Source: Planctomycetota bacterium
Lineage (GTDB): Bacteria > Planctomycetota > UBA8742 > UBA2392
Length of the DNA: 64,000 bases
Assembly: GCA_003576915.1 (NCBI GenBank)
Contig: QEVF01000009.1
Location: 17,638 to 81,637, forward strand
Direction: 5' to 3'
The notes beneath the pieces were generated by a model that was given only the letters and a program-made list of their open reading frames with translations, did not search any database and was not told the DNA's origin. Made by a program: the position numbers and the translations under genes. This document shows positions 2-54,608 of the stretch, piece after piece. Each line of letters begins with the position of its first letter. Position 1 is the stretch's first letter.

Positions 2-1783
2 ATTGCCACCTCCCCCATTTCAAAGCTGCAGAAGTCGCTCTCCCTGCTCCTGAACCTGCTGCTGCTGGCCTGCCTCGTGCTGGCCCTCAGCGGTCTGAAG
101 ATTCCGGATGCGCGCCAGCGCGGGTTGCCGCTGGTGCTGATCATTGACACGACGGCCAGCATGCAGACACGCACGCTGGATGGCTCCCGGCTGGAACTGG
201 CCCTGGCTCGAGCCAGAGAGATCGTGGATGCCGCCGGTGACAGCCCCGTCACCCTCATGACCTGGAACGGCTCGCTGCTTCTCGCGGCCCCCGCCGACTG
301 CGAACCCTCCGTGGCCAAGGCTGCCTTGGGGCGCATTGAAGCAACGGACTTGGGCGCCGGAGACGAAGCGCTGCTGCTGGCGCTGCGCCCCCACTTCGAG
401 GCCAAGCGCGCCCAGCGTATTGCCCTGATCTCGGACCATCGCCCCGGAGCCGTATCGGCCGACTACCTGTTCGTCCCCGCCGGAGCCGCCGCCGCCAACG
501 TGGGCATCGTGGCCGCCGATGTTCACGACGCAGGCAAGGGACAGGCCGACCTGTTTTTCGGCCTCGAGCTCTTTGGCGAAGATCGCAGCCTGGTGTCGGT
601 CAAACTCGAGCGCCTGACGGCCGGCGAAGATCAGCCTCTGGTGGAAGTGGCCGACGTGCGCGAGCTGACCCTCGCCCGCGGGCCGCGCACGCCCGTGAGC
701 TTCAGGATCAGCCGGCCGGGTCTTTACCGCGCCCGCCTCGAAAGCGAGGACGCTCTGGCCCTCGACAGCCAGGCCTTCCTTCGCTACGCCCCTCCCGCCA
801 AGCTGGCCGTGGCGTGCGTCGGCCCTCTGCCGCGCTCTCTGGGAACGCTGCTGTCCGCGTTGGAGTTTGTCACGGTGGTCGATGCCGCGGACGCCGATGA
901 CTCCACCACCGCGTTTGTCTACACCGACGGCGCCAAGGCCCGTCGCACCCGCCTGCCGGCGGCCTATGTCGGACCCCAGTCCGGAGCTCCGGGCGTGCGG
1001 TTTTCGAGCGCGAGCGACGCCTCTGATTTCGCCGCCCGACCCGCGCGCAGCTTTCTCTGGCGTGGGGCGGGCGTGCCGGACCTCAGGCTGGGCGCAGTGT
1101 GCAACATCGAGAGTGCGGGCTTCTTTCAGCCGGTGCTGGAGGCGGGCACCGGGGTTTCGATATGCATGCTGTCGCGCGACAACGAGGCGCTGTCCGACCT
1201 GATTGTCGGTTTCGACCTCGACCACGAGGCCAACAACTTCCGCAACAAGTACGCCTTCGTGATTTTCTGGAGCAATTGGTTTGAACACGTGCGCTCCCTG
1301 CTTGAGCCCCTGCCCCGCGGCGCCGTACGCACCGTGGACACCCTCGAAGTGCGCAAGCTTGAGGGGCGCGGCGAGTTCAGTTACCGGCGCCCGGGCGCAC
1401 AGGAGGGCTGGCAGGCGTCCATGCCCGGCGACGTACTGTCCGCCGAACGCGTCGGGCTGCTTCACTTTCAGGGATTGCGCGAAACCTCGGAACCGCTGCT
1501 GGGCGTGAGCCTGCTCGACCCCGCCGAAAGCAACACCGCCGCCGTCAGCGATGCCGTCTGGGATTCAGCGGCCGCCAAAGAATTTCTCTCGGCCGCCAAT
1601 GCCAACGATGGAGATCAGGCCGACTACGACCTGCGGCCCTGGCTGGCTCTGGCTGCGCTGGCGCTGCTGTTGTTTGACTGGTTCTACTTCAGGCGGCGCT
1701 TTGCCCTGGGGCAGGGCCGGCCGTCCGTCCGGAAGACGGCGCGCGGCGCAACTGCGATTCGAAGGCGCCAAGCAGGCGCTTGA
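2..1783 (+). CDS. BatA-like membrane-anchored von Willebrand factor A (VWA) domain protein, 5' end cut by the window edge
   Basis: The frame is open from base 2 (..KSLSLLLNLLLLACLVLALSGLK reads as an N-terminal TM helix), so the Met at 77 is internal. LVLIIDTTASM is a typical VWA domain start. A C-terminal TM helix LALAALALLLFDWFYF is followed by RRR. Confidence 0.75.
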   Translation: MATSPISKLQKSLSLLLNLLLLACLVLALSGLKIPDARQRGLPLVLIIDTTASMQTRTLDGSRLELALARAREIVDAAGDSPVTLMTWNGSLLLAAPADCEPSVAKAALGRIEATDLGAGDEALLLALRPHFEAKRAQRIALISDHRPGAVSADYLFVPAGAAAANVGIVAADVHDAGKGQADLFFGLELFGEDRSLVSVKLERLTAGEDQPLVEVADVRELTLARGPRTPVSFRISRPGLYRARLESEDALALDSQAFLRYAPPAKLAVACVGPLPRSLGTLLSALEFVTVVDAADADDSTTAFVYTDGAKARRTRLPAAYVGPQSGAPGVRFSSASDASDFAARPARSFLWRGAGVPDLRLGAVCNIESAGFFQPVLEAGTGVSICMLSRDNEALSDLIVGFDLDHEANNFRNKYAFVIFWSNWFEHVRSLLEPLPRGAVRTVDTLEVRKLEGRGEFSYRRPGAQEGWQASMPGDVLSAERVGLLHFQGLRETSEPLLGVSLLDPAESNTAAVSDAVWDSAAAKEFLSAANANDGDQADYDLRPWLALAALALLLFDWFYFRRRFALGQGRPSVRKTARGATAIRRRQAGA

Positions 1784-4190
1784 AAGCGTCCTCAGCTTCC
1801 GATTGTTCGGCCGGCGGCCCGTAACGCAGGCGGTAGAACTGCTCTGTCAGTTCACGCACAGCTTCAAAGGTGCCCCCGCCGCGGCGGATCACACGCCATG
1901 CGAACTCGCGGGGCGTTTCAAATGGCCTCTTGTGAAAGCCGACGCGCGCCAATGCCAGCAGCAGCCGGACATAGAGTCCCTGCTGGCGCCGGTTCATGCC
2001 ACGCAATCCGGAGTCGACACCCATCTCATCCAGCACGCGCTTCTTGAGCCTGCGGCGTCCCCGGTGGCGCCACAGCATCCAAAGCACCAGCGCCGACAGG
2101 GGCGCGAGCACCAGCGAAGCCCGCGCCCAGGGAGACTGCGGCAGATAGTCCGGCATCCAGTCCGTCGCGACCGCCAGAGCCTCACGTAATTGCTCCACGC
2201 CGCGATCAAAACCATCTTCGATATCCCTGGCCAATTGCTCGCGCGCCTCGTTGCCATAGCCGATCAGGGGGTCCCTCGGCTGGCCGCCAGATGGCGTCTG
2301 CGGGTCCGTGCCCTGGGTTGCCGCGTCAGGCTCAGGGCCGGGGTCAGGGGTGACTTCAGGCTCGGGCGATGGCTCGGGATCGCTGCCCGCCGCGCTGGGC
2401 GGTGTCGGGTCAAAGGTGACCCAACCATAGCCCTGCACGTAGACCTCGACCCACGCATGGGCGTTGGAACCATAAACTTCAAACACACCGCGCTCTTCGT
2501 TGTAAGTCGTGGCGTGAAAACCAACCGCCAGCCGGCAGGGCACGCCCGAAGCGCGCAGCACGGCGCACATGGCCGACGCGAAGTACTCGCAATGGCCGTA
2601 GGGTTCCGTCGTAAGGAAGCGATAGATGCAATCCGCCCCGGGACGGGGCCGGCGCTGCAGCGAGTAACTGTACAGATTTTCCCCTGTGCGCTGCACCTTG
2701 GCCTCCGCAAAATACCGCACCAGCCAGCGGGCAGCAGCCACCGAGCTGAAGACCGGATTGTCCCCGCTGACGCGCCGCGAAGCGCGGTTGCGAACTTCCG
2801 CCACCACCGGCAGCGAATTGAGCTTCTCGGCAAGGCTCTTGGGCAACAGCCAGTACGCCCGTTCCGGCGTGCCCGGTGCAGGAGCGCCGTTCTCAGGCGG
2901 GGCGCGCGGCGGCGCCTTGCCCGCCAATCGTGCCTCCAGATCGCCGTAGTCCATGATGAACTCGACGCTCTCAAAGCCGTAGGTGGAACTGAGTTTCACG
3001 CCGGGAGCCCGCAGGATGCCGGCCTCCGGCGTCCAGATGGCTTCCGCGTCAAAGCCGGTCAGCGCGACGGGCTCGGCGGTCAGGGGCAGCTCTCCCAGTT
3101 CGCCCAGGCCGCCGCGCAGCAAGCTGACCTTGTAGCCGGCCAGTCGGAAGCCCTCGCCCGGATTGCGCGCACCCGGCAGGCGCCGCTTGCCGCGCTGGGC
3201 CTCGCCCAGCAACGTGCCGCTGGTGGATGAAGGGGAGGGGCTCCAACGTTCACCGTCAAAGGTGGAGTGAGTGAAACAACGCAGATAGAGGGGCGTGGGG
3301 ATGTATCGAGGCGTCTGAACGGTCAAGGGCCTGACCTCGAGCACCTTCTCCATCGACTGCTGAATCTCGCCGAACTCGCCCAACTCGACGCCGCGCGACA
3401 GCGAAGTGATGCCGGAGATGGACCTTTCGCCCCCTGTCCCGCCTGACTTCGTGCCGCCTCCCGACTTGCCCGGCGCGCCGTTCCCGGCCACGGGTAGCGC
3501 GCCGTCCTTGTGCCCGTCGTCGCGGCTGAACTCAATTCGCGGCATGGCAAAGAAGAGCACAAACGTAGCCGCCAGCATTGAAATCACGGCGCCCCAGAGC
3601 ACGGCGAAGAACGAGCCGCGCATCAGGCTGCCGGGCTGAGATGCCGCCACTCCCTGACTCCTTCCCTCGAGCGGAAAGAGCTGCAACTGCATGCGGGCCG
3701 GATAGGAAAACGCGACGTAAAGCGCAGCCAGGGTGCCCATGCCCAGAAGCCAGGGCCAGAGCACATCGTCCAGCGGGCGCCTCAGCCCCGCCACCACGAA
3801 AAAGAGCGTCAAGACCAGAACCAGGCTGGAGAGCCGCGCGCTTTCCCGCGTGTACAGCACCATGAGCTGCACGGGCAATATCAGTACCGGCAAGGGCGTA
3901 TTGAGGGCCAGGCCGATGGCATCGCCCCGATAGGGATCGATGCGATCCAGGGTCGCCAGCAGGAACATGGCCGGAAGCATCAGGTAAAACGCCAGCAGGT
4001 AGGGCCGAAAGCGCCTTAAGGCGGGCAGCACCAGAAAGGCTTCCTGCAGGCAGAGGCAGATGAGGATGAAGGCCGGTTCACGCCAGTCCATGAGGCCGCG
4101 CCGATGGAACAGCACGCCGGTCACCGAAAGAGCAATGCCCAACACCCGGGTGATGTGGCGGTAAAGGGCCCCCGTGGAGTGGATGCTCAT
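1689..4190 (-). CDS. Transglutaminase-like enzyme with N-terminal multi-pass membrane domain (TgpA/DUF3488-like)
   Basis: The N-terminal ~200 aa are hydrophobic helices. The transglutaminase core Cys-His-Asp is visible: GHCEYFASAMCAVLRASGVPCRLAVGF ... NAHAWVEVY ... GWVTFDPTP. The start overlaps the upstream DUF58 stop by 4 nt. Confidence 0.85.
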   Translation of the reverse strand: MSIHSTGALYRHITRVLGIALSVTGVLFHRRGLMDWREPAFILICLCLQEAFLVLPALRRFRPYLLAFYLMLPAMFLLATLDRIDPYRGDAIGLALNTPLPVLILPVQLMVLYTRESARLSSLVLVLTLFFVVAGLRRPLDDVLWPWLLGMGTLAALYVAFSYPARMQLQLFPLEGRSQGVAASQPGSLMRGSFFAVLWGAVISMLAATFVLFFAMPRIEFSRDDGHKDGALPVAGNGAPGKSGGGTKSGGTGGERSISGITSLSRGVELGEFGEIQQSMEKVLEVRPLTVQTPRYIPTPLYLRCFTHSTFDGERWSPSPSSTSGTLLGEAQRGKRRLPGARNPGEGFRLAGYKVSLLRGGLGELGELPLTAEPVALTGFDAEAIWTPEAGILRAPGVKLSSTYGFESVEFIMDYGDLEARLAGKAPPRAPPENGAPAPGTPERAYWLLPKSLAEKLNSLPVVAEVRNRASRRVSGDNPVFSSVAAARWLVRYFAEAKVQRTGENLYSYSLQRRPRPGADCIYRFLTTEPYGHCEYFASAMCAVLRASGVPCRLAVGFHATTYNEERGVFEVYGSNAHAWVEVYVQGYGWVTFDPTPPSAAGSDPEPSPEPEVTPDPGPEPDAATQGTDPQTPSGGQPRDPLIGYGNEAREQLARDIEDGFDRGVEQLREALAVATDWMPDYLPQSPWARASLVLAPLSALVLWMLWRHRGRRRLKKRVLDEMGVDSGLRGMNRRQQGLYVRLLLALARVGFHKRPFETPREFAWRVIRRGGGTFEAVRELTEQFYRLRYGPPAEQSEAEDAFKRLLGAFESQLRRAPSSGRTAGPAPGQSAA

Positions 4191-5431
4191 GCTTCGCCCT
4201 CCGCCTCGCCCCGTGCCAGTTCGCGGCTGGTGATGCTGCGCCGGCCCAGCACGTCAAAGGAAAGGTTGGAGCGGAAATCCGCGTCAGCCGCACCGATGAC
4301 GATGGCCCCTGACGTGCTTGGCAGGCGGGCCTCCGCGTGCTCTTTGGGGCCCAGCGTAAGCAAGATGGGCGTTTCCTGAGCGTCTCCGAGGCCCACTTGA
4401 TCAATCCAGCGGGCCAGGGGCACCTCCGAAAGTCCCACGTGCGCCAGACGCTCCATGATGGCGTGATACTGCGAGTCTCCGCGACCGTGCTGGCTCACCA
4501 GCAGCGTCTGGCCGAGATGGGCAAATCGGAAGTTCACGCTTTGGCGTGTGAGGAAAAACGTAATGCCGGCACACAGGCCCACCAGCGCTTCCAGACGCTC
4601 CCGCAGCGTGTTGGGGTCGCCGACGGGCGCGGTATTCAGGATGATCACGAAGTTTGCGTCACGCCTGCCCTCCAGTTCGAGGATCATCGGCTTGCCGGTG
4701 CGCGCCGTCGTGCGCCAGTGAATGCGCTTGAGGTTCTCCCCCTGCCGGTACTCGCGCACGCCAAACACTTCTTCATCGCCCCGGTGGGATGTCGATGACT
4801 CGCCAAAGTAGCGAGCCAAGTCCAGCAGGCGCTCTTCCAGCTCCCGCGACAGGCGAAGCGGCCTCGGGTAAGCCACGATATCGCTGCGGAAACTCAACGA
4901 CCGCGAAGCGGCCACCAGCCCGAACGGAAACGCCGAGGTCACGTTGATCTCGCGCAGCCGGTGGTTGCCGCGCCGCCTCAGGGAGGCCGCCACGGGCAGC
5001 CGCAGAACAAAGCGCGGCGAGACGGCCATGGCGAGCTGGAGCGGAAAGTCCCGCTGCAGATCCGGCAGGGCCGTGTCATCAAGAATCAGGGAGAAACTCG
5101 GCAGCCAGCGCTTGCGGTTGTGGACCAGAAGCTCGATCTCGAAGGTCTCTCCGACGTGCGCCGCGCCGGGATGCCTGCGCTTGACCTCGATGCCCCGGAT
5201 ATTGAGCCAAACCCAGACCGCATTGACCGCGGCCATGGCCACAGGCAGGCAGCCGAGCAGGAGGAAGGCGTTTTCCCCGGTGTGAGCGCCCGCCACGAAC
5301 AGGCCGATGCCTGAAAGAACAAAGTAGGCCCCCCAGCGCGTGGGGCGGGGCAGCACGCGCAGCCACGCCCAAAGTCGCTCTCTGCGGCGCCGAACCTGCC
5401 GGGTGGACTGGGTTGCCGCTTCGCCGCTCAT
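4187..5431 (-). CDS. DUF58 domain protein (Bat/MoxR-operon type)
   Basis: An N-terminal pair of TM helices is followed by the DUF58 hallmark FGVREYRQGENLKRIHWRTTARTGKPMILELE. Confidence 0.8.
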   Translation of the reverse strand: MSGEAATQSTRQVRRRRERLWAWLRVLPRPTRWGAYFVLSGIGLFVAGAHTGENAFLLLGCLPVAMAAVNAVWVWLNIRGIEVKRRHPGAAHVGETFEIELLVHNRKRWLPSFSLILDDTALPDLQRDFPLQLAMAVSPRFVLRLPVAASLRRRGNHRLREINVTSAFPFGLVAASRSLSFRSDIVAYPRPLRLSRELEERLLDLARYFGESSTSHRGDEEVFGVREYRQGENLKRIHWRTTARTGKPMILELEGRRDANFVIILNTAPVGDPNTLRERLEALVGLCAGITFFLTRQSVNFRFAHLGQTLLVSQHGRGDSQYHAIMERLAHVGLSEVPLARWIDQVGLGDAQETPILLTLGPKEHAEARLPSTSGAIVIGAADADFRSNLSFDVLGRRSITSRELARGEAEGEA

Positions 5432-6808: not shown

Positions 6809-7912
6809 TCAACCCTTCTTGTGGGACTTCACGTCGTCAATGGCGCGGCCGATGCGGGCCAAGCCCTCGCGCACCTCGGCGGGGTTGCTCTTGTACCCCA
6901 CGCGCAGGAATCCCGGTGACTGGAAGTATTCGCCGGCCACCACCAGCACTCCGTACTCATTGCGCAAAACGGTGGCCAGGTTGCCGGTTTCCTCAAGCCC
7001 CTTGACGCGCATCCAGCACACGAGGCCGCCCGGCGGCGTGAAGGCCTCGATGTCGGTGCGCGTCTTGAGCCATTCAGCGACGATGGGCCAGTTGCGTTCG
7101 TGCAGGCCCCGCGTGATGGCCCTGAGCCGCGAAAGATTGCCCAGTGCCTTCGCCGCCATGTTCTGGCACACCGGCGAAATCTCCGGATCGACGACGTCGG
7201 CCAGATCACACATTCGCGAGGCAATGCGCGCCGGCGCCAGCGCCCAGCCAAAGCGCAGGGCGGACAGGCCGTAAACCTTGGTCAGGCTGCTGGTCACGAT
7301 CACGTTGTCGCCATAGCCAAAGCAGGTGTCGTCTTCGGCGCCGATCTTCAGATGATCGAGGTAGACCTCATCCACCAGCACGGTCGTGCCGTTCTTGGCC
7401 GCCGCAGCGATCATGTCCTTGAGCAGGTCACGGGGCAGCTTGGCCATGCTGGGATTGTGCAGGTCCGTGAATACCGCCAGCCGCGTCTTGTCGTCCAGCA
7501 GGCGCTTGAACTCGCCGAGGTCGGGGGCAAATCCGTTTTCAAAGCGGCGCTTGAGCTGCACAGGGCGGCAACCCGCCAGCGTCGTGAGGCTGTTGAACTG
7601 GCCGTAGCCGGGCATCTCGATGATGACTTTGTCGCCGGGCTGCAGCACCGCCGAGAAGGCAAAGAAGTTCGCCTCGCTGCTGCCCGCCGTCAGCACGACA
7701 TTCTGGCCGCTGCACTTGTAGCGCGTGGCCAGCCAATCCACGTTGCGCGGGTCGCCGTAGCTGTTGCAGAGCGCATCGAGGTCGTAATCGTCAGCGCTGA
7801 AGTTCAGCTCGCCCGGCTTGGGCGGATACATGCCGCTGCCGGCCATGTAGATGCCGTCTGCGTATTCCAGCCGCTTGGCATGGCGCATGTACGAAAACGG
7901 TTCGAAGTCCAT
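6809..7912 (-). CDS. PLP-dependent aminotransferase, class I/II fold
   Basis: SSLTKVYGLSALRFGW is the Schiff-base lysine motif. ...VLVDEVY... and NPSMAKL are also typical. Start chosen at MDFEPF (7912); the ORF extends to 7960. Confidence 0.8.
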   Translation of the reverse strand: MDFEPFSYMRHAKRLEYADGIYMAGSGMYPPKPGELNFSADDYDLDALCNSYGDPRNVDWLATRYKCSGQNVVLTAGSSEANFFAFSAVLQPGDKVIIEMPGYGQFNSLTTLAGCRPVQLKRRFENGFAPDLGEFKRLLDDKTRLAVFTDLHNPSMAKLPRDLLKDMIAAAAKNGTTVLVDEVYLDHLKIGAEDDTCFGYGDNVIVTSSLTKVYGLSALRFGWALAPARIASRMCDLADVVDPEISPVCQNMAAKALGNLSRLRAITRGLHERNWPIVAEWLKTRTDIEAFTPPGGLVCWMRVKGLEETGNLATVLRNEYGVLVVAGEYFQSPGFLRVGYKSNPAEVREGLARIGRAIDDVKSHKKG

Positions 7913-38081: not shown

Positions 38082-39653
38082 CTACTTCGTGGCCGGCTTG
38101 TCAAAGTCGTAGCGCCGCGCGTTTTCTTCGCGCACTTCCTCTTTGCCCGCCAGTTTGTAGGCGTCAATCCACGGCGAGAGGTTGTTCACCAGGGCGCGCG
38201 AGGTGCGCCCCCCACCGTGACTCTCGCCCGGCTCGTCATACTGAAAGAACAGGTAGCGGGCGCTGGTGCCGACTTCGTTCACCGTGGCATCGACGGGAAC
38301 CCACCGTCCCAACCAGACCTCGCTCCAGGCGTGATAGCCCCAGAACCCCTCGCTTCCGCCGCTGACATAAACCACGCCGCTGACGTTGCGAGCGGGCAGG
38401 CCTGCTGCCCGCGCCAGGGCCACGAAAAGCGCCGAGTGCTCCGTGCAGTCGCCCTTTTTTTCGTCGAAGGCCTGGCGCGCCGTAGCCGACCCGGAGTTTC
38501 CGGATTCCTTCTTGAGGTAGCGGTAAACGAACCGGCAAAGCGCCTCGGCGGCGGCGCGGCTGTCCTTGGCGCCCTTGACCAGTTCCTGAGCTTTCTTGGC
38601 CAGGACGTCGTCGTGGCTCTCGCATTGGGGCGTGGGTTCAAGCAGGGCTTTGACGGTGTCATCCACCTGGGTCAATGGATAGGCCGGAGCCTTGAAGTCA
38701 GCCCCCAGACGGCGGGACCTGAGACGGGCCGCATAGCCGGTTTCCTTGCCCTTTTCGTAGCGCACGACGTCGTGGTACTCGTTGGTCTCGATGAGCGGGA
38801 GAATTCCGTCGCCGTCGTCCACAGGGAAGCGGAAGTGGATCTCCATGCGCTCGATGTTCTCGTTCTTGCCGGGGACAACGATGTTGGCTTCCATCGAAGT
38901 TTTCAGCGCCGGGACATCCTCCACGGTGAAGGGCTCGGGGATGGCGTCCACCTTCTCCACGAGAATCAGGCCGCCGGACTGAATCCACAGCGGGTTGGCT
39001 TCGAGGTCAAAGAGGGCCTCGCTGCGTTCGCCGCCCTCGATCAGGTGGATAACCATGCCCGTCAGCTTGGCGCCGGTGCGGGTCTTGCGGGTACCTTCAC
39101 CCTGTATCATCCAGGTGGACTGTTCGAGCGCCATGTCGCTGAGGTCAAAGCGGGTGAAGGTAAAGCGCTCACCGGCCTTGAGCTTTCCCTGCGCCTTGAG
39201 CTGCATGAACGCCTGCCGGTCCGAGAGGATGTTGCCGTCGTGCTTGACCTCGAGGCTGGTCTTCTTGCCGCCATTGCTGACAACGACCGCCACACGCTTT
39301 TCCTCGAAAGTGTACTCGCAATCGAGCGTCTGGGCGCCGTCGGTCTTGGACAGCTTGGCGGAAATCTGGCGGAAGTCGCTGTCGAAGATCTCCTCGCTGC
39401 GGCTGCCGATCTCGAATGTCGATTTGTCCCAGCTGCGCTTGATGATCAGGTGCTGCACATCCGTGGTGCGGATGCGCTCGGATTCACCGTCCTTGAAGCG
39501 CTCGACGGTGGACTTCATGTACCCCACGCGGGCATTGCTCATGTAAGCCAGATACAGAAACGTACTGGGCTCGGAGGCCTTGGGGGTCTCCTGCGCCGCG
39601 GCAGACGCATAGGCCAGAAGCAACAACAGCAACGCAGAGCCAAGTCGGCGCAT
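38082..39653 (-). CDS. Secreted transglutaminase-like cysteine protease domain protein
   Basis: Signal peptide MRRLGSALLLLLLAYASAAA. Core: GDCTEHSALFVALARAAGLPARNVSG ... GYHAWSEVWLGRWVPVDAT. Confidence 0.8.
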   Translation of the reverse strand: MRRLGSALLLLLLAYASAAAQETPKASEPSTFLYLAYMSNARVGYMKSTVERFKDGESERIRTTDVQHLIIKRSWDKSTFEIGSRSEEIFDSDFRQISAKLSKTDGAQTLDCEYTFEEKRVAVVVSNGGKKTSLEVKHDGNILSDRQAFMQLKAQGKLKAGERFTFTRFDLSDMALEQSTWMIQGEGTRKTRTGAKLTGMVIHLIEGGERSEALFDLEANPLWIQSGGLILVEKVDAIPEPFTVEDVPALKTSMEANIVVPGKNENIERMEIHFRFPVDDGDGILPLIETNEYHDVVRYEKGKETGYAARLRSRRLGADFKAPAYPLTQVDDTVKALLEPTPQCESHDDVLAKKAQELVKGAKDSRAAAEALCRFVYRYLKKESGNSGSATARQAFDEKKGDCTEHSALFVALARAAGLPARNVSGVVYVSGGSEGFWGYHAWSEVWLGRWVPVDATVNEVGTSARYLFFQYDEPGESHGGGRTSRALVNNLSPWIDAYKLAGKEEVREENARRYDFDKPATK

Positions 39654-50543: not shown

Positions 50544-50903
50544 TCAGGCCCGCCTGAACTTCTCGCAGGCGTAGGGCTGGTCTTTCAGCGCTTTGCACAG
50601 CGCGTCTTCGGTCAGCTCGCAACCCGCCTTCATGGTGATGGTCAGCGTTTCGTGTTTCTCGTCCAGGCTCACCTCGTCCACACCGTCCAGTGCGAGCACC
50701 AGCTTCCTGAGGGCGGCTGCGCCTTCGGCGTCCTTGACTCCGCTGACCGAAACTTCATATTTCGCTGCCTTCACGGGCAGGTTGCGCGGGCCTCAGCCCG
50801 CTCACAGAAAGTCGGGCGTTGCGCCCCCGGCGCCAAAGGGCGCCGCCGACAGCGCGCCGCAGGACAGTGCGGCCAGCAAAACCAGCGTGAGCATCCTGTG
50901 CAT
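50544..50903 (-). CDS. Exported protein with N-terminal UAGU motif (two in-frame TGA) followed by an HMA-like ferredoxin-fold domain; putative selenoprotein A
   Basis: GAGGAG lies 6 nt upstream of the ATG at 50903. Signal peptide MHRMLTLVLLAALSCGALSA. The TGAs at 50802-50804 and 50793-50795 are in frame with the 76-aa ORF at 50544-50774, reading ..DFL-U-AG-U-GPRNLPVKAAKYEVSVSGV.. The listed ORF starts only at an internal GTG. Confidence 0.6.
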
Positions 50904-50960
50904 GGCATTCTCCTCAGGCCCCGATTGGGACGCCGGCGCGGCCGTCGAGGTTCCGCCAAT

Positions 50961-51272
50961 TCAGGGACCGGCAGGCGTCAGGGGGCTCAACTGGCGCAGG
51001 GTTACCCCCTGTTCGAGGGCCAACCGCTCAAGGGCAGCGCGCAGGGCCTGCTCCGTGCCAAGCCAGGTGATGTGAAACTCGCCCTGGGGCTCTTCGTATA
51101 CGCTTTGGACGCCATCCAGGCGCGCGATCATCTGATCGAAACCGGGTCAGTCCTCGCCTCACTGCCCGTAATCGAGCCAGGCGAGATAGTGGTGGGGCGG
51201 GGGCGCCTGCGGTTTGGGCGGGGCCGCACAGGCGGCGAGCAGCAGCAAGGACGTGAGCCACATCAAGCGCAT
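50961..51272 (-). CDS. Lipoprotein with HMA-like domain carrying UGEDU at the metal-binding loop (two in-frame TGA); putative selenoprotein B
   Basis: The ATG at 51272 gives MRLMWLTSLLLLAAC (lipobox). The TGAs at 51159-51161 and 51147-51149 are in frame. My manual translation downstream is stop-free to the TGA at 50961: ..YLAWLDYGQ-U-GED-U-PGFDQMIARLDGVQSVYEEPQGEFHITWLGTEQALRAALERL.. I see no clear SD. Confidence 0.55.
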
Positions 51273-51283
51273 GTCATAGAATA

Positions 51284-51315
51284 GAAAACCGGGCAACTGG
51301 CGTCGCCCGGTTTTC
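51284..51315 (-). terminator. Intrinsic terminator-like hairpin downstream of selenoprotein C
   Basis: On the minus strand, GAAAACCGGGC-GACGCCAGTT-GCCCGGTTTTC is followed by TATTCT. Confidence 0.6.
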
Positions 51316-51333
51316 GTATTGCGGCGGAGGATG

Positions 51334-51753
51334 CTACTTGCCGGAGCCCTTGTTCCCGTCAGTTCCGTCCTTCTTTTCTTCCTTCTTTTCTTCCTTGGTC
51401 TCCTCGCCTTCCTTGGCGAAAGAGCGGACGCTGAACTTGCTGTCCTCGAAGGCCTTGACGACCGCATCCTTCTCGATCGTCTTGCCTTCCTTCATCGTGA
51501 CGGTGGCTTCCTGCTTCTTCTTGTCCCACGTTGCTTTTTCCACGCCTTCCAGGCTGGAGAGGGTCTTGACGACCGCAGGTCCTCACGTCGCTCACGTCGC
51601 GCCGTCGATGCCAACCTTGTAAACCGTGGGTGCTGCCTTGGCCGGCTGCTCGGCCTTCTTTTCTTCGCCCTTGCTCTCCTGGGCCTGGCAGGCCACGCCC
51701 GCCACACTGACCGAGAGCAGGAGCGCGGCAGCGACGAATCCCATCTGACGCAT
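51334..51753 (-). CDS. Exported HMA/MerP-like protein with GAT-U-AT-U-G at the GMTCxxC position (two in-frame TGA); putative selenoprotein C
   Basis: AGGAGG lies 6 nt upstream of the ATG at 51753. Signal peptide MRQMGFVAAALLLSVSVAGVAC. TGAs at 51592-51594 and 51583-51585. The readthrough product VYKVGIDGATUATUGPAVVKTLSSLEGVEKATWDKKKQEATVTMKEGKTIEKDAV aligns with the Cys paralog VVTIEGMTCIKCAKAVEKAIAAIDGVESVKVCDKSGKALVTMKEGKTLDKTAV. Confidence 0.7.
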
Positions 51754-51825
51754 GTGCATCCTCCTGTTAGAGAAATGGAAACAACCCTTCCATATGGAAC
51801 TACGGAGGGCAGCTTAGCATTCCGC

Positions 51826-51858
51826 AAAAAAAGAGGGAGCGGCGCAGGCCGCTCCCTC
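51826..51858 (-). terminator. Strong rho-independent terminator after the Cys-type HMA gene
   Basis: On the minus strand, GAGGGAGCGGC-CTGC-GCCGCTCCCTC (11-bp stem) is followed by TTTTTTT. Confidence 0.8.
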
Positions 51859-51877
51859 GGCATGCGGGCGCAGAAGA

Positions 51878-52360
51878 CTAGCCCTTGGACTTCTCTGCCG
51901 TCTTCGCTTCCTTGTTCTCGTCCTTCTTGGGTTCGGCCTTCACGACGGACTTGGTCTTGAACTCCGTCTCCTTGAGGGCCGTCTCGACGGCGGTCTTGTC
52001 AAGGGTCTTGCCTTCCTTCATGGTGACCAGCGCCTTGCCGGACTTGTCGCAGACCTTGACGGACTCAACACCGTCAATGGCGGCAATGGCCTTCTCCACG
52101 GCCTTGGCGCACTTGATGCAGGTCATGCCTTCAATCGTCACGACAAAGCTGTTGGCCTTGACCTCGCCGCAGCCGCCACAATCCTTGGCATCGCCCTTGT
52201 CACAGCAGCCCTTGCCTTCTTCTTCACAGCACTTCTCGCCGTCCTTCTTCTCGCTCTTCTTGTCGCCGCAGCTATCACAGCCCTTGCACTGGGCCATCAG
52301 CGGGGCGCCGGCGAAAGCCAGGCCGAGGAAGAGCATCAAAGCAGTCAGGAACTTCGTCAT
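51878..52360 (-). CDS. Exported Cys-rich HMA domain protein (MerP/CopZ-like, canonical GMTCxxC)
   Basis: The ATG at 52360 gives signal peptide MTKFLTALMLFLGLAFAGAPLMA. A Cys-rich linker follows (CKGCDSCG..CCEEEGKGCCDKGDAKDCGGCG), then VVTIEGMTCIKCAKAVEKAI. Confidence 0.85.
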   Translation of the reverse strand: MTKFLTALMLFLGLAFAGAPLMAQCKGCDSCGDKKSEKKDGEKCCEEEGKGCCDKGDAKDCGGCGEVKANSFVVTIEGMTCIKCAKAVEKAIAAIDGVESVKVCDKSGKALVTMKEGKTLDKTAVETALKETEFKTKSVVKAEPKKDENKEAKTAEKSKG

Positions 52361-52459
52361 GTCGTCTCCGTTCATTAGTGCGGGGCAAGGCCCCATCGTG
52401 GTTGTCGTAAGCGGCCCATTATAGACGAACGGGCCGGGTCCGTCCTTACATCAAAATGG

Positions 52460-52936
52460 TCATTTCACCTTGTGTCGCGCCTTGAGCGCCTTCCAGTCTC
52501 CCTGCAGGTCCTCCTTGAAGCTGAAGACCTCATAGCCGAAGTCCTTGTAGATGAAGTCTGTGACAGTCTTCTCGTCCAGCCGGATCTGGGGCTTGCACAG
52601 GACGAAAAGCGTGAATTCCTCGATCACGGTGAAGCTGTCCAGCAACCCATACTGGGTGGTGAGGGCGTCCACGACGCCCGTGGTTCAGCCGCCTCAGTCG
52701 ATGCCCTTGAGGCCGATGGCGTAGATCACCTCCCTGATTTCCGGCCTGGCTTCCGGTTCCGCCTTGGGTTCAACCTTCGGCTCGGCCTTGGGCTGGGGCC
52801 TCGCGCCGCAGCCGGAGTCAACGGAAGCAGGCTCGCCGCCGCCCTTGCGCAGATGCACGGGCTGGAAGTCTTCTTTGGTGAGCTGGCAGCCGCCCGTCAG
52901 GGCCAGCAGCAACAGGGCCAGGAGTCCGCGGTTCAT
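52460..52936 (-). CDS. Lipoprotein with HMA-like domain carrying UGGU at the metal-binding loop (two in-frame TGA); putative selenoprotein E
   Basis: GAGGAG lies 6 nt upstream of the ATG at 52936. Lipobox LALTGGC. The TGAs at 52694-52696 and 52685-52687 join the listed ORFs 52694-52936 and 52460-52672 in one frame: ..EVIYAIGLKGID-U-GG-U-TTGVVDALTTQYG.. Confidence 0.65.
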
Positions 52937-52946
52937 AGCCTTCTCC

Positions 52947-53834
52947 TCAAATCAGGTAGCTGAACATCAGCATGAATTCGCCTTCATGGTAGAACTGCTT
53001 GCCGAACAGATAGCGATAAACCGGCAGGTTCAGCCCGAACTTGCACTCGATGCGGTTGGTGATGTTCATCTGCATGCCAAGCGCCAGATGTACGAAATAG
53101 CCGCCGCTGTTGTCATCGCGGTCGCCGTGCATGCGTCCGCGGTGCTCAAAGCGGGCGTCGGCCTCCACCAGCAGAATCAGGTCAAAATCGCGGTAATCCG
53201 TAAGCTGGAACACGCGATAGGCGTAGGCCAGGTGGGCCTGGGCTTCGGGGCCCGCGCCGCTGCCGTCAATCTGGGTGCTGCCGCGCCCCGCCAGGTCAAA
53301 CCAGAGGTAGTGGCGTGTGGTGCTGGTGGAAGCTGAGAGGCCGAACGTGAACGTCCAGTTGTCGTCAAACTCGTCGCCCATGGGCTCGCCGTGGCGCCGC
53401 GTGGCCGTGGGCATGTCGATCGTGGCAAACCACGACGCCTTGGTGGAACCGCCCTCAAACACGTTGTTGAGGAAGCGGTAAGTGCCGGCCAGAGAGAACT
53501 TGCGGGCGCCGGAGTAGACCTCGCTCCCGTCCTTGCTGTGTTCGCGCATGTAGAAGTAGGGCGTCTTGATCCGCATGGCGAAGTCGCGCGAGAACCCGTA
53601 GGTGACGCCGGGCTCGATGGTGTGCATGAACATGCGGCGGTCGCGCCCGTTGGAATCGGGGTTGTCGCCGCTGAAATAGCGGAAGGCCCAGTCGAACTCC
53701 TGCTCGAGTTCAAGTTCGAGGCCCTTGTTCCAGATGGTTCTGGGTCCCAGTCCGAACATGGTTTCGTGGGCGCTCACGGCGCCCGCGCCCAGAACTCAGA
53801 CCAGTGCCAGCAAAGCCAGGTGCTTCAGCGTCAC
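52947..53834 (-). CDS. Putative outer-membrane beta-barrel protein with one in-frame TGA inside the signal peptide
   Basis: The GTG at 53834 is preceded by AAGGAG with a 6-nt spacer and overlaps the merR stop (GTGA). The N-terminus MTLKHLALLALV-[TGA 53796-53798]-VLGAGAVSA|HE is a signal peptide. The body has alternating beta-strand-like sequence and ends ..MLMFSYLI. Confidence 0.6.
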
Positions 53835-54274
53835 GCCGGACTCCTTTTCTTGCCCTTGGGGGCCCTGGTTGGACCGCCTTCTATGCCTTGGAGGATGCTG
53901 CAGCATTCGGTGCTCTTGTCGCCGCCGGGGCAGCGTTCAATGAGGTCAGCGAGGTGATCGCGCATCTCGGTCAGCAGCTCGATTTTGCGAGTAATCTCGA
54001 TGAGCTTGCGCGAGGCAAGCTCGCTGACGTCTCCGCAGGTGGCGAGGTCGGAGGTGCGCAGGAACAGCAGGTCCTGAATCTCTTTGAGCGTGAAGCCGAC
54101 ATCCTTGGCGCGCTGGATGAAGCGCAGGCGCGCGACGTCGTCGTCGCCGTAGAGGCGATGGCCGCCGGCGCTGCGCTCGGGTTTGGGCAACAGACCCTCG
54201 CGCTCATAAAAGCGCACGGTTTCGATGTTGATGCCCGTGGACTCGGCCAGCTTGCCTACCGTCATGGTGGTCAT
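53831..54274 (-). CDS. merR: MerR-family regulator with the mercury-type Cys triad
   Basis: The HTH is KLAESTGINIETVRFYEREGLL. Cys80, Cys115 and Cys124 have the same spacing (35 residues, then C-x8-C) as Cys82, Cys117 and Cys126 of Tn501 MerR as I recall it. Confidence 0.85.
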   Translation of the reverse strand: MTTMTVGKLAESTGINIETVRFYEREGLLPKPERSAGGHRLYGDDDVARLRFIQRAKDVGFTLKEIQDLLFLRTSDLATCGDVSELASRKLIEITRKIELLTEMRDHLADLIERCPGGDKSTECCSILQGIEGGPTRAPKGKKRSPA

Positions 54275-54291
54275 GTGGCACCTCGGGGAAC

Positions 54292-54322
54292 AAGTTACCT
54301 CCGTAGCTTACTACGGGTTCAA
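54292..54322 (-). promoter_or_regulatory. MerR-type promoter/operator: -35 TTGAAC, 19-bp spacer containing dyad CCGTAG-N4-CTACGG, -10 TAACTT
   Basis: The minus strand reads TTGAAC CCGTAGTAAGCTACGGAGG TAACTT. The spacer counts to 19 nt. The dyad resembles the Tn501 mer operator (TCCGTAC-N4-GTACGGA). It lies ~18 nt upstream of the merR ATG. Confidence 0.75.
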
Positions 54323-54524: not shown

Positions 54525-54552
54525 CTGAAAGCTGGTGGTCAGGGCCGGACTT
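54525..54552. repeat. Direct repeat copy overlapping the 3' end of tRNA-Phe
   Basis: See 54364-54391. Confidence 0.9.
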
Positions 54553-54608
54553 GAACCGGCGACCCATGCATTTTCAGTGCATTGCTCTACCAACTGAGCT
54601 ACCTGACC
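54533..54608 (-). tRNA. tRNA-Phe (anticodon GAA), CCA encoded
   Basis: The minus strand reads GGTCAGG TA GCTC AGTTGGTA GAGC A ATGCA CTGAAAA TGCAT GGGTC GCCGG TTCAAGT CCGGC CCTGACC A CCA. This gives a complete cloverleaf. Confidence 0.9.

What the first reader, a model, noticed from the sequence alone, without database searches (positions are those of the whole stretch)
50544..54322. Mercury-type MerR locus encoding five exported HMA/MerP-like proteins, four of which have paired in-frame TGA (selenocysteine) codons at the metal-binding cysteine positions
Seen in sequence:
- Nine in-frame TGA codons are concentrated in 3.3 kb.
- Eight of them occur as four pairs, spaced 2, 2, 2 and 3 codons apart: UGGU, UATU, UAGU, UGEDU.
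- Three pairs sit exactly where an HMA domain has its GMTCxxC loop. The fourth sits in an N-terminal tail.
- Each interrupted gene has a start with a signal peptide or lipobox upstream of the TGAs, and three of the four have a Shine-Dalgarno. Each also has a stop-free, HMA-fold-compatible continuation downstream in the same frame.
- A canonical Cys version (GMTCIKC) lies in the same cluster.

Established knowledge:
- A Cys/Sec homolog pair with the UGA aligned to a redox or metal-binding Cys is the classical signature of a bacterial selenoprotein.
- Selenolates bind Hg(II) and other soft metals far more tightly than thiolates.

Inference: this is a MerR-controlled periplasmic or outer-membrane soft-metal capture system built from diselenide/diselenolate MerP-like proteins. 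I cannot check databases. To my knowledge UxxU HMA proteins clustered under a MerR are not a characterised system.
Basis: partly seen in the sequence, partly recalled or inferred. Interest (0 to 1): 0.95.

Follow-up and report, generated by a model that had tools for sequence, protein, structure and literature searches.

The report
Selenocysteine metal-binding protein operon, Planctomycetota
A Planctomycetota chromosome carries a mercury-sensor-type regulator followed by an outer-membrane channel and five exported metal-binding-type proteins, four of which use pairs of selenocysteines in place of the usual cysteines; such proteins were already predicted, but not this dense, conserved operon.

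Summary
All nine in-frame TGAs sit at the stated coordinates on the minus strand and recur in ten independent assemblies.

They are almost certainly selenocysteine codons:
- Eleven diverged Planctomycetota lineages keep the TGA pairs while the residues between them change.
- Sequence on both sides evolves as coding sequence in one frame (dN/dS 0.03-0.24 downstream).
- Two independent Cys/Sec pairs exist: g1 LLUAGU vs LICACC, and an HMA lipoprotein GMHUANC vs GMHCDGC.
- Hairpins downstream of the TGAs covary.
- TGA also ends five genes in the cluster, so the genetic code is not reassigned.

g3 is an HMA domain by Pfam. g5 and g2 are remote HMA-like, with the U pair on the CxxC loop. g1 is an HMA domain with its UxxU in an N-terminal tail.

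The regulator best matches Hg-MerR, with all three Hg-ligand cysteines and a mer-like 19-bp-spacer operator. g6 is a 12-strand-class outer-membrane channel.

Caveats:
- UxxU HMA selenoproteins are already catalogued (NCBIfam NF041115; GOS "MerP"), so the kind is known.
- Terminators follow g4 and g3, so MerR control of g3, g2 and g1 is only inferred.
- No merT or merA is nearby.
- Sec machinery could not be checked.
- Metal specificity is unknown.

New here are the multi-paralog operon, three unmodelled families, and a Sec codon in the g6 signal peptide.

The parts
54292..54322 (-). MerR-type promoter/operator: -35 TTGAAC (54322-54317), perfect dyad CCGTAGTAAGCTACGG (54316-54301), -10 TAACTT (54297-54292), 19-bp spacer
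   Evidence: Read from the sequence. It is the only copy of the dyad in the window at up to 3 mismatches. -35 TTGAAY and the dyad CCGTAGTAARCTACRG are conserved in W, L017, L011, L013 and L022.
53831..54274 (-). merR: 147-aa MerR-family metal sensor with Cys80, Cys115 and Cys124/125
   Evidence: Pfam MerR_1, MerR-DNA-bind and MerR. Best NCBIfam hit is TIGR02051 MerR at 132 bits, below its cut-off of 150.85. Best solved match is Hg-MerR 4UA1 (E 4e-28) with the query's three metal-site cysteines aligned to cysteines in 4UA1, then Tn501 MerR 5CRL, then CadR.
52947..53834 (-). g6: outer-membrane beta-barrel channel, 295 aa. The GTG start overlaps the merR stop (GTGA). A single internal TGA (53798-53796) lies in the signal peptide MTLKHLALLALV-U-VLGAGAVSA|HE. 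Hairpin GGGCGC-CGUGA-GCGCCC at 53784-53768.
   Evidence: AF2 model pLDDT 77.8. Foldseek top matches are FapF (5o65, TM 0.67) and the COG4313 channel (4rl8, TM 0.70). Fifteen homologs at 40-96% identity. dN/dS between W and L017 is 0.05 for the whole gene; the signal peptide has 6 synonymous and 0 nonsynonymous differences. Orthologs have L, M or F at the TGA position. Hairpin energy is -11.1 kcal/mol, top 5% of background.
52460..52936 (-). g5: 158-aa lipoprotein (conserved Cys17-Gln lipobox, Pro/Glu/Lys linker) with a remote HMA-like domain, GID-U-GG-U. TGAs at 52696-52694 and 52687-52685. Tandem hairpins at 52679-52663 and 52659-52643.
   Evidence: U pair conserved in 11 lineages as UGGU or UGQU. 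hhalign vs HMA 96.4%, E 1e-9. Profile vs PDB finds CopZ 6ff2, E 2e-4. No Pfam or NCBIfam family. Exhaustive HMMER over 1.84e9 proteins finds only three fragment clusters of 55-70 aa and no Cys form. Hairpins 95% paired over 10 lineages with compensatory changes; 0 of 500 shuffles reach the score.
51878..52360 (-). g4: 160-aa secreted all-Cys HMA protein (GMTCIKC) with a Cys-rich N-terminal region
   Evidence: Pfam HMA 36.7 bits. Orthologs in L013, L016 and L017; absent in L011.
51826..51858 (-). Intrinsic terminator after g4 (11-bp GC-rich stem followed by T7)
51334..51759 (-). g3: 141-aa secreted HMA protein, DGAT-U-AT-U-GP. TGAs at 51594-51592 and 51585-51583. Short hairpin GGUC-GUCAA-GACC at 51574-51562.
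   Evidence: Pfam HMA 31.7 bits, above gathering. NF041115 33.5 bits, below the cut-off of 95. Orthologs carry UATU, UGSU, UAGU, UASU or UGMU. dN/dS downstream is 0.03. The hairpin is weak, -4.5 kcal/mol.
51278..51315 (-). Terminator-like hairpin after g3 (14 pairs followed by a T-rich tail)
   Evidence: A hairpin lies at this position in all five lineages compared.
50961..51272 (-). g2: 103-aa lipoprotein (LLAAC lipobox), remote HMA-like, YGQ-U-GED-U-PGFD (U-x3-U). TGAs at 51161-51159 and 51149-51147. Hairpin CGAUC-AGAU-GAUCG at 51138-51125.
   Evidence: Orthologs carry UGEDU, UGESU or UGEGU. hhalign vs HMA 81.8%, E 1e-5. No Pfam or NCBIfam family. The hairpin is weak, -4.2 kcal/mol.
50544..50903 (-). 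g1: 119-aa secreted protein with N-terminal tail FL-U-AG-U, followed by an HMA domain whose canonical loop lacks Cys. TGAs at 50804-50802 and 50795-50793. Hairpin CUGCC-CGUGAA-GGCAG at 50780-50765.
   Evidence: hhalign vs HMA 99.2%, E 8e-20. Orthologs carry LLUAGU or LLURGU; the Cys form LICACC occurs in L016 and lacks the hairpin. The hairpin is 100% paired in 5 lineages, with 3 pair types at the closing pair although the stem codons encode L, G or M.

Best explanation
This is a chromosomal gene cluster conserved in one Planctomycetota clade.

Components:
- A Hg-type MerR sensor.
- g6, a 12-strand-class outer-membrane channel whose start is translationally coupled to merR.
- Five exported HMA-type proteins: lipoproteins g5 and g2, and soluble g4, g3 and g1.

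Four of these proteins are true selenoproteins, each carrying two selenocysteines.
- In g5, g3 and g2 the two Sec replace the two metal-ligand cysteines of the HMA GMxCxxC loop.
- In g1 they sit in an N-terminal tail.

How the UGAs are decoded. Each UGA is decoded by SelB and Sec-tRNA(Sec), guided by hairpins within the coding sequence just downstream.
- In g5, two tandem hairpins could each serve one UGA (21 nt and 32 nt to the apical loop).
- In g1, one hairpin lies 26 nt and 17 nt from the two UGAs and could serve both.

Proposed function (inferred, not shown). When a thiophilic divalent metal such as Hg(II), or possibly Cd, Zn or Pb, binds MerR, the 19-bp-spacer promoter is activated. The envelope then fills with very high-affinity, kinetically labile diselenolate metal sites alongside a Cys-rich HMA protein (g4). 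Together with the channel, these sites capture or relay the metal in the periplasm or at the outer membrane.

A ninth Sec codon lies in the g6 signal peptide. It occurs only in the window's own sub-lineage and is also read through.
For: Shown:
- The TGAs reproduce in independent assemblies.
- The pairs are conserved in 11 lineages while the intervening residues vary.
- Differences are biased to third codon positions on both sides of the pairs. dN/dS downstream is 0.03-0.24.
- Cys/Sec pairs exist in g1 (L016 CACC) and in the HMA lipoprotein (L025 UANC vs L028 CDGC).
- TGA also serves as the true stop codon.
- HMA homology is shown.
- Hairpin covariation is shown. The hairpin is absent in the Cys-form g1.
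- Every internal TGA has a hairpin that fits the published bSECIS model (PMC13188914), and the g5 and g6 hairpins fall in the top 3-5% of background.
- MerR: the query's three metal-site cysteines align to cysteines in Hg-bound MerR 4UA1, and the operator is conserved.
- g6 has a beta-barrel channel fold and is under purifying selection.
- Some Planctomycetes are known to use Sec (PMC4807772).

Inferred:
- Export and lipidation (signal peptides and lipoboxes read by eye).
- Metal binding by the U pairs (by analogy with MerP and CopZ CxxC).
- The identity of the metal.
- Which hairpin serves which UGA.
Against: - The Sec machinery (selA, selB, selC, selD) could not be looked for in these MAGs, and none lies in the 64-kb window.
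- The g2 and g3 hairpins are weak (-4 kcal/mol). About 32% of random TGAs in this GC-rich window do as well.
- The g5 hairpin-1 stem never varies, so it shows no covariation.
- Terminators after g4 and g3, together with a single operator, leave MerR control of g3, g2 and g1 unproven.
- No merT, merA or metal pump is adjacent.
- MerR scores below the TIGR02051 cut-off, with ZntR close behind.
- In an oxidising periplasm a UxxU pair may rest as a very stable diselenide, which would not bind metal without prior reduction (established chemistry, not tested here).
Confidence: 0.65

Rival explanations
1. These are real selenoproteins, but the UxxU pairs act as redox-active diselenide/diselenol centres rather than metal ligands. 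They would form a periplasmic oxidoreductase or selenium-handling set, for example reducing or trafficking selenium or sulfur species.
For: - Most bacterial selenoproteins are redox proteins, and a UxxU motif is listed for the Prx-like family (PMC2398784, PMC13188914).
- From my own knowledge, fish SelL is a UxxU protein with a diselenide bond; here it appears only as a title in the PMC2398784 reference list.
- g1 carries its UxxU outside the HMA metal loop.
- g2 has a non-canonical U-x3-U spacing.
- No metal transporter or reductase is adjacent.
Against: - Three of the four pairs sit exactly on the HMA metal loop.
- The cluster starts with a metal-sensing MerR that has a complete three-Cys site.
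- It includes a Cys-rich canonical HMA paralog.
- The HMA fold is not a known thiol-oxidoreductase fold.
Confidence: 0.15
2. The architecture and Sec usage are as in the best explanation, but the physiological metal is not mercury. It is Cd(II), Zn(II) or Pb(II), or a monovalent coinage metal, and the system is a general soft-metal buffer.
For: - The MerR score is below the TIGR02051 cut-off, and ZntR scores nearly as well (132 vs 127 bits). CadR structures rank third in the PDB search.
- There is no merA, merT or merB nearby.
- HMA hits are as good to CopZ as to MerP.
- The locus is chromosomal, syntenic and housekeeping-flanked rather than a mobile mer element.
Against: - The best solved match is Hg-MerR, with the ERCP motif and the 35/9 Cys spacing.
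- The operator dyad resembles merO (from memory of Tn501 merO, not tested).
- By the published Ser77/Cys79 rule (from memory), Cys at the position-79 equivalent argues against monovalent Cu, Ag or Au.
Confidence: 0.3
3. The TGAs are genuine stops. The genes would then be split or decaying pseudogenes, or TGA would be reassigned to another amino acid in this lineage.
For: - Gene callers split every one of these genes at the TGAs.
- Sec machinery has not been demonstrated.
- Rfam finds no SECIS.
Against: - The frame and protein sequence are conserved right across the TGAs in 11 lineages that have diverged to about 40% identity.
- Purifying selection acts downstream of the TGAs.
- Cys aligns with U in two families.
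- The downstream pieces have no conserved start codons.
- TGA terminates merR, g6, g5, g2 and g1, which excludes reassignment.
Confidence: 0.03

Closest known systems
NCBIfam NF041115 'UxxU_metal_bind' metal-binding (seleno)protein, called 'putative mercuric reductase' in selenoproteome reviews (the 2022 review PMC9312934 cites its ref 63; that reference was not opened)
   Same: An HMA-type domain in which both cysteines of the CxxC loop are selenocysteine. It is a predicted metal ligand and has not been characterised experimentally.
   Different: - The proteins here score 33-41 bits against a cut-off of 95, so they are not members of that equivalog.
- They carry signal peptides or lipoboxes.
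- They occur as four or five paralogs in one operon with a MerR and an outer-membrane channel.
- g5, g2 and g1 match no model at all.
MerP (TIGR02052), the periplasmic Hg(II)-binding protein of mer operons, and the 'MerP' selenoprotein listed from the GOS metagenome (PMC2398784)
   Same: An exported HMA fold with a two-ligand loop, in a locus headed by a MerR-type regulator.
   Different: - g3 scores 33 bits against a cut-off of 92.55.
- No MerT or MerA is present to receive and reduce the metal.
- merR is co-directional and translationally coupled to a beta-barrel gene.
- The ligands are Sec/Sec rather than Cys/Cys.
SAO system (Haft, bioRxiv 10.1101/2022.07.06.499078) and the MerT / MerT-CopZ selenoproteins (NF045683)
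   Same: Operons in which several proteins that handle a soft metal outside the cytoplasm use Sec at presumed metal-contact positions.
   Different: There is no sequence relationship. The SAO system is an ABC-transport and MerB-like system with CU motifs, mostly in Firmicutes. Here there are no transporter ATPases or lyases, the motifs are UxxU in HMA folds, and the phylum is Planctomycetota.
Prx-like UxxC/UxxU and FmdB-family UxxU bacterial selenoproteins (listed in PMC13188914); eukaryotic SelL, a UxxU diselenide protein (my own knowledge)
   Same: Two Sec residues separated by two residues. In bacteria this raises the same question of how two adjacent UGAs are decoded.
   Different: Those proteins have thioredoxin-like or zinc-ribbon folds and redox or regulatory roles, not HMA folds. 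The eukaryotic SECIS is in the 3' UTR, so it has no spacing problem.
FapF and COG4313 outer-membrane channels (PDB 5o65, 4rl8), compared with g6
   Same: A 12-strand-class monomeric beta-barrel of about 270 residues (Foldseek TM 0.65-0.70).
   Different: Identity is only 10-14%. There is no Pfam or NCBIfam match and no amyloid or hydrocarbon-uptake gene context. The substrate is unknown.

Membership tests
Bacterial selenoprotein (Sec decoded at UGA) | In-frame UGA conserved in orthologs, with protein conservation on both sides in the same frame | tested here: met
   Eleven lineages keep the pairs. Differences are biased to third codon positions on both sides. dN/dS downstream is 0.03-0.24.
Bacterial selenoprotein (Sec decoded at UGA) | Cys-containing homologs aligned at the Sec position | tested here: met
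   g1: LICACC in L016 against LLUAGU/LLURGU. HMA lipoprotein: GMHCDGC in L028 against GMHUANC in L025. For g5, an exhaustive search found no Cys form anywhere.
Bacterial selenoprotein (Sec decoded at UGA) | [quoted passage not shown] | tested here: inconclusive
   All nine TGAs have a fitting hairpin, but only g5 (-11.6 kcal/mol) and g6 (-11.1) stand out from background. Covariation supports the g1 hairpin and g5 hairpin 2. The g2 and g3 hairpins are weak. Rfam gives no match.
Bacterial selenoprotein (Sec decoded at UGA) | selA, selB, selD and tRNA-Sec present in the genome | not testable with these tools
   None lies in the 64-kb window or the fetched loci. The rest of the MAGs could not be read. 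Sec use is documented in other Planctomycetes (PMC4807772).
HMA domain (Pfam PF00403) | Score at or above the gathering threshold of 24.8 bits | tested here: met
   g3 scores 31.7 and g4 36.7. g1 scores 20.9, below threshold, but hhalign gives 99.2%. g5 and g2 have no Pfam hit; hhalign gives 96.4% and 81.8%, and the g5 profile finds CopZ 6ff2. They are remote relatives rather than formal members.
NF041115 UxxU_metal_bind (equivalog) | Score at or above the curated cut-off of 95 bits | tested here: not met
   g3 scores 33.5, g4 35.8 and the L013 extra HMA 40.6 bits. g5, g2 and g1 have no hit.
MerP (TIGR02052) | Score at or above 92.55 bits, and a partner MerT/MerA | tested here: not met
   g3 scores 33.4 bits. 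No MerT or MerA domains appear among about 40 window ORFs scanned.
Hg(II)-responsive MerR (TIGR02051) | Score at or above the cut-off of 150.85 bits | tested here: not met
   The score is 132.2 bits. It is the best hit, ahead of ZntR at 126.6.
Hg(II)-responsive MerR (TIGR02051) | Three Hg-ligand cysteines (C79/C114/C123 in B. megaterium MerR numbering) and a promoter with a 19-20 bp spacer containing a dyad operator | tested here: met
   C80, C115 and C124 align to the three cysteines of 4UA1. The promoter reads TTGAAC, 19 bp containing CCGTAGTAAGCTACGG, then TAACTT, and is conserved in five lineages.

The most novel reading that the evidence does not exclude
This may be a selenium-dependent envelope system dedicated to capturing mercury-like metals as Hg-(Se)2 complexes, with several features without precedent:
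- A Sec-only protein family (g5) that has no cysteine form anywhere in 1.84 billion proteins.
- Pairs of UGA codons 6-9 nt apart, each decoded with the help of its own tandem SECIS hairpin.
- In the window's own lineage, a selenocysteine codon in the cleaved signal peptide of the outer-membrane channel. It would act as a translational checkpoint, so that the channel is made only when Sec-tRNA (that is, selenium) is available.

A resting diselenide might even capture Hg(0) by oxidative addition. That chemistry is recalled from memory and was not tested.
Probability: 0.15. Interest if true: 0.85.

Novelty: new variant of a known kind. Interest (0 to 1): 0.65.

Why it matters
- Selenolate ligands bind Hg and other soft metals far more tightly, and exchange faster, than thiolates. 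A regulated operon of exported di-Sec HMA proteins would be a natural example of selenium used for metal handling rather than redox catalysis, and it is relevant to Hg-Se antagonism and bioremediation.
- It packs nine Sec codons into 3.4 kb. That gives a compact natural test bed for an open mechanistic question: how bacterial SelB and SECIS decode two UGAs only 2-3 codons apart.
- Standard pipelines miss all of these genes. Every caller splits them, and g5 has no Cys homolog to anchor a Sec/Cys search. Selenoproteomes of Planctomycetota and similar MAG-only lineages are therefore probably under-counted.

Tried and rejected
- A word-indexed homolog search with g3 (U replaced by C) found nothing. 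The same search with the Cys-form g1 of L016 found only itself.
It was rerun with the exact C-terminal segment.
HMA likeness was therefore tested by hhalign and a PDB profile search instead.
- Rfam at gathering and at permissive thresholds gave no SECIS or tRNA-Sec, only chance hits.
- ARAGORN on the window and eight loci found only tRNA-Phe.
- Pfam scans of about 40 window ORFs found no selA, selB, selD, merA or merT.
- A window-wide scan for other read-through TGAs found no further convincing candidate.
- No second MerR operator was found upstream of g3 or g2.
- The assembly accession GCA_008363065 appears in no paper.
- Considered and rejected: assembly error, pseudogenes or split genes, and genetic-code reassignment.
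- No single loop consensus shared by all the hairpins emerged. CGUGA-like loops occur only in g1, g6 and the window's g5.

Full report
**Observation.** The region 50544-54322 encodes seven genes on the minus strand:
- merR (54274-53831)
- g6 (53834-52947)
- g5 (52936-52460)
- g4 (52360-51878)
- g3 (51759-51334)
- g2 (51272-50961)
- g1 (50903-50544)

Eight internal in-frame TGAs form four pairs: g5 UGGU, g3 UATU, g2 UGEDU and g1 UAGU. A ninth lies in g6. TGA is also the real stop of merR, g6, g5, g2 and g1, so the genetic code is not reassigned. Ten independent assemblies from different sequencing runs are 99.7-100% identical over the locus, which rules out an assembly artefact.

**Are the TGAs translated?** Using the g6 protein as an anchor, I recovered syntenic clusters from diverged Planctomycetota:
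- L011, L013/L018, L016/L019, L017/L020, L022, L023 and L024
- a more distant clade, L025, L027 and L028

In every lineage the gene callers split these genes, but read-through translation restores conserved proteins.
- g5 keeps GID/GMD-U-G-G/Q-U in all eleven lineages.
- g3 shows UATU, UGSU, UAGU, UASU and UGMU.
- g2 shows UGEDU, UGESU and UGEGU.
- g1 shows UAGU and URGU.

So the residues between the TGAs drift while the TGAs themselves do not.

Nucleotide differences concentrate at third codon positions both upstream and downstream of the pairs. For g5 the counts at positions 1/2/3 are 94/96/242 upstream and 207/167/421 downstream. Between the window and L017, dN/dS downstream of the pairs is 0.03-0.24.

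Two independent Cys/Sec pairs exist:
- The g1 ortholog of L016 has LICACC where the others have LLUAGU or LLURGU.
- The HMA lipoprotein next to g5 is GMHUANC in L025 and GMHCDGC in L028.

This is the classical signature of selenoproteins. Pseudogenes, split genes and recoding are effectively excluded.

[quoted passage not shown] Every internal TGA has a hairpin that fits it. In this 65% GC sequence the model is permissive: 32% of all 1834 TGA trinucleotides reach -4 kcal/mol and 5% reach -10. Only g5 (-11.6) and g6 (-11.1) stand out on energy.

Comparative evidence is better.
- The g1 hairpin (loop CGUGAA) is paired in 100% of cells in five lineages. It has three pair types at the closing pair, although the stem codons encode Leu, Gly or Met. 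It is absent from the Cys-form ortholog.
- g5 has two tandem hairpins, 95% paired across ten lineages. Hairpin 2 shows compensatory changes (A-U, U-A and G-C at one position), and none of 500 shuffles reaches the observed score.
- In g5 hairpin 1 the stem is almost invariant even at four-fold degenerate sites, while the loop third position varies freely.
- The g2 and g3 hairpins are short and unconvincing on their own.
- Rfam has no match.

Spacing suggests that g5 hairpin 1 (21 nt) serves the first UGA and hairpin 2 (32 nt) serves the second. The single g1 hairpin lies 26 nt and 17 nt from its two UGAs. This assignment is inference.

**What the proteins are.**
- With U replaced by C, g3 and g4 pass the Pfam HMA threshold (31.7 and 36.7 bits against 24.8).
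- Profile-profile comparison against the clear HMA members gives 96.4% for g5 (E 1e-9, UGGU on CxxC), 81.8% for g2 (E 1e-5) and 99.2% for g1. In g1 the canonical loop has no Cys and the UxxU lies in the N-terminal tail.
- A g5 profile finds CopZ 6ff2 in the PDB, with UGGU aligned on CGHC.
- By inspection, g5 and g2 carry lipoboxes with a conserved +1 Cys, while g1, g3 and g4 carry type-I signal peptides.
- g5 has a Pro/Glu/Lys-rich tether.
- g6 has no family match, but its AlphaFold model (pLDDT 77.8) is a beta-barrel closest to FapF and the COG4313 channel (TM 0.65-0.70).

**Regulator.**
- The MerR protein's best NCBIfam hit is Hg-MerR TIGR02051, at 132 bits against a cut-off of 150.85. ZntR is close behind at 127 bits.
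- Its best solved relative is Hg-bound B. megaterium MerR 4UA1 (E 4e-28). The query's three metal-site cysteines and the ERCP motif align there (C80, C115, C124). Tn501 MerR and CadR follow.
- The promoter reads TTGAAC, then 19 bp containing the perfect dyad CCGTAGTAAGCTACGG, then TAACTT. It is conserved across lineages.
- merR's stop overlaps the g6 start (GTGA).
- There is only one operator in the window. Strong intrinsic terminators follow g4 and g3, and hairpins occupy the same positions in other lineages.
- MerR control is therefore directly supported only for merR-g6-g5-g4.
- No merT, merA, metal pump or sel gene lies among about 40 ORFs of the window. The flanks are housekeeping genes (SurE, thiolase, NadC, tRNA-Phe).

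**The ninth TGA.**
- g6's TGA lies in the hydrophobic core of its signal peptide. It occurs only in the window, L017 and L020. More distant orthologs have Leu, Met or Phe there, never Cys.
- g6 is under strong purifying selection (dN/dS 0.05).
- The 24 signal-peptide codons spanning the TGA differ by six synonymous and no nonsynonymous changes.
- No alternative start would leave a signal peptide.
- A strong hairpin with the same CGUGA loop follows at model-compatible spacing.

The TGA is therefore most likely read as Sec at a non-catalytic position that is later cleaved off. Whether that is a tolerated accident or a selenium checkpoint is open.

**Comparison with what is known.**
- HMA-type selenoproteins are already catalogued: NCBIfam NF041115 'UxxU_metal_bind' (UxxU, 2 Sec; 'putative mercuric reductase'), NF045683 MerT/CopZ fusion selenoprotein, and a 'MerP' selenoprotein from the GOS data (PMC13188914, PMC9312934, PMC2398784).
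- The proteins here are not members of those models. They score 33-41 bits against a cut-off of 95, and g5, g2 and g1 match nothing.
- An exhaustive HMMER search with the g5 C-terminal segment found only three clusters among 1.84 billion representatives, all fragments of 55-70 aa. g5 is a rare family with no cysteine form.
- New here are the conserved MerR-channel-multi-HMA operon in Planctomycetota, three unmodelled di-Sec families, the density of Sec codons, and the signal-peptide Sec.
- I classify the finding as a new variant of a known kind.

**Confidence.**
- That these are genuine selenoproteins: about 0.9.
- That the U pairs are soft-metal ligands in an envelope capture or relay system induced by a Hg-like metal: about 0.6. 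This rests on homology and context only.
- Main caveats: the Sec machinery is unchecked, metal specificity is unknown, the resting state may be a diselenide, and transcription past the terminators is uncertain.

Noticed in passing
window 53796-53798 (minus strand), with hairpin 53784-53768: A TGA lies inside the hydrophobic core of the g6 signal peptide. It is shared by W, L017 and L020 only. All six differences in the signal-peptide codons are synonymous, and the gene has dN/dS 0.05. Orthologs have Leu, Met or Phe there, never Cys. This is probably a non-catalytic Sec in a cleaved peptide.
   Followed up: yes
window 51826-51858 and 51278-51315 (minus strand): Strong intrinsic-terminator-like hairpins lie after g4 and after g3, and hairpins occupy the same positions in other lineages. 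The cluster may be three transcription units, with differential expression or mRNA stabilisation.
   Followed up: partly
window 51788-51809: A perfect 12-bp palindrome, TTCCATATGGAA, lies next to a CCTCCGTAG stretch that matches one arm of the MerR dyad plus flank. It sits about 30 nt upstream of the g3 Shine-Dalgarno sequence. It is present in W and L017 but not in more distant lineages. It could be a second regulator's site.
   Followed up: partly
window 54533-54608 (minus strand); also L013, L014, L016-L019: tRNA-Phe(GAA) lies within about 350 bp upstream of merR in W and in L013, L014 and L016-L019, on either strand relative to merR. No integrase or mobile-element genes were seen. GC content is slightly lower across the cluster (61-63%, against about 65% for the window).
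   Followed up: partly
L013 8841-9194; L022 7951-8331: An additional HMA lipoprotein with GMS-U-GIK-U (U-x3-U on a canonical HMA loop) is inserted between g2 and g1 in these lineages. It is absent from the window.
   Followed up: partly
L025 about 7360-7760; L028 7168-7575: The distant clade has a minimal cluster of merR, channel, g5 (UGQU) and one HMA lipoprotein. That lipoprotein is UxxC in one genome and CxxC in another. So CxxC, UxxC and UxxU states all occur in this system. A conserved 299-aa protein with no Pfam match precedes merR there.
   Followed up: partly
window 52400-52458 (minus strand, after the g5 stop): A 9-bp GC-rich hairpin, CGGCCCGUU-CGUCUAU-AAUGGGCCG (-13.4 kcal/mol), lies in the g5-g4 intergenic region with no T tract. 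Its function is unknown.
   Followed up: no
window 1689-5431 and 38082-39653: Two transglutaminase-core proteins are present, together with DUF58 and VWA genes. One paper notes a transglutaminase-core gene in a planctomycete Sec-insertion operon (PMC4807772), but no sel genes are adjacent here. This is probably coincidence.
   Followed up: partly
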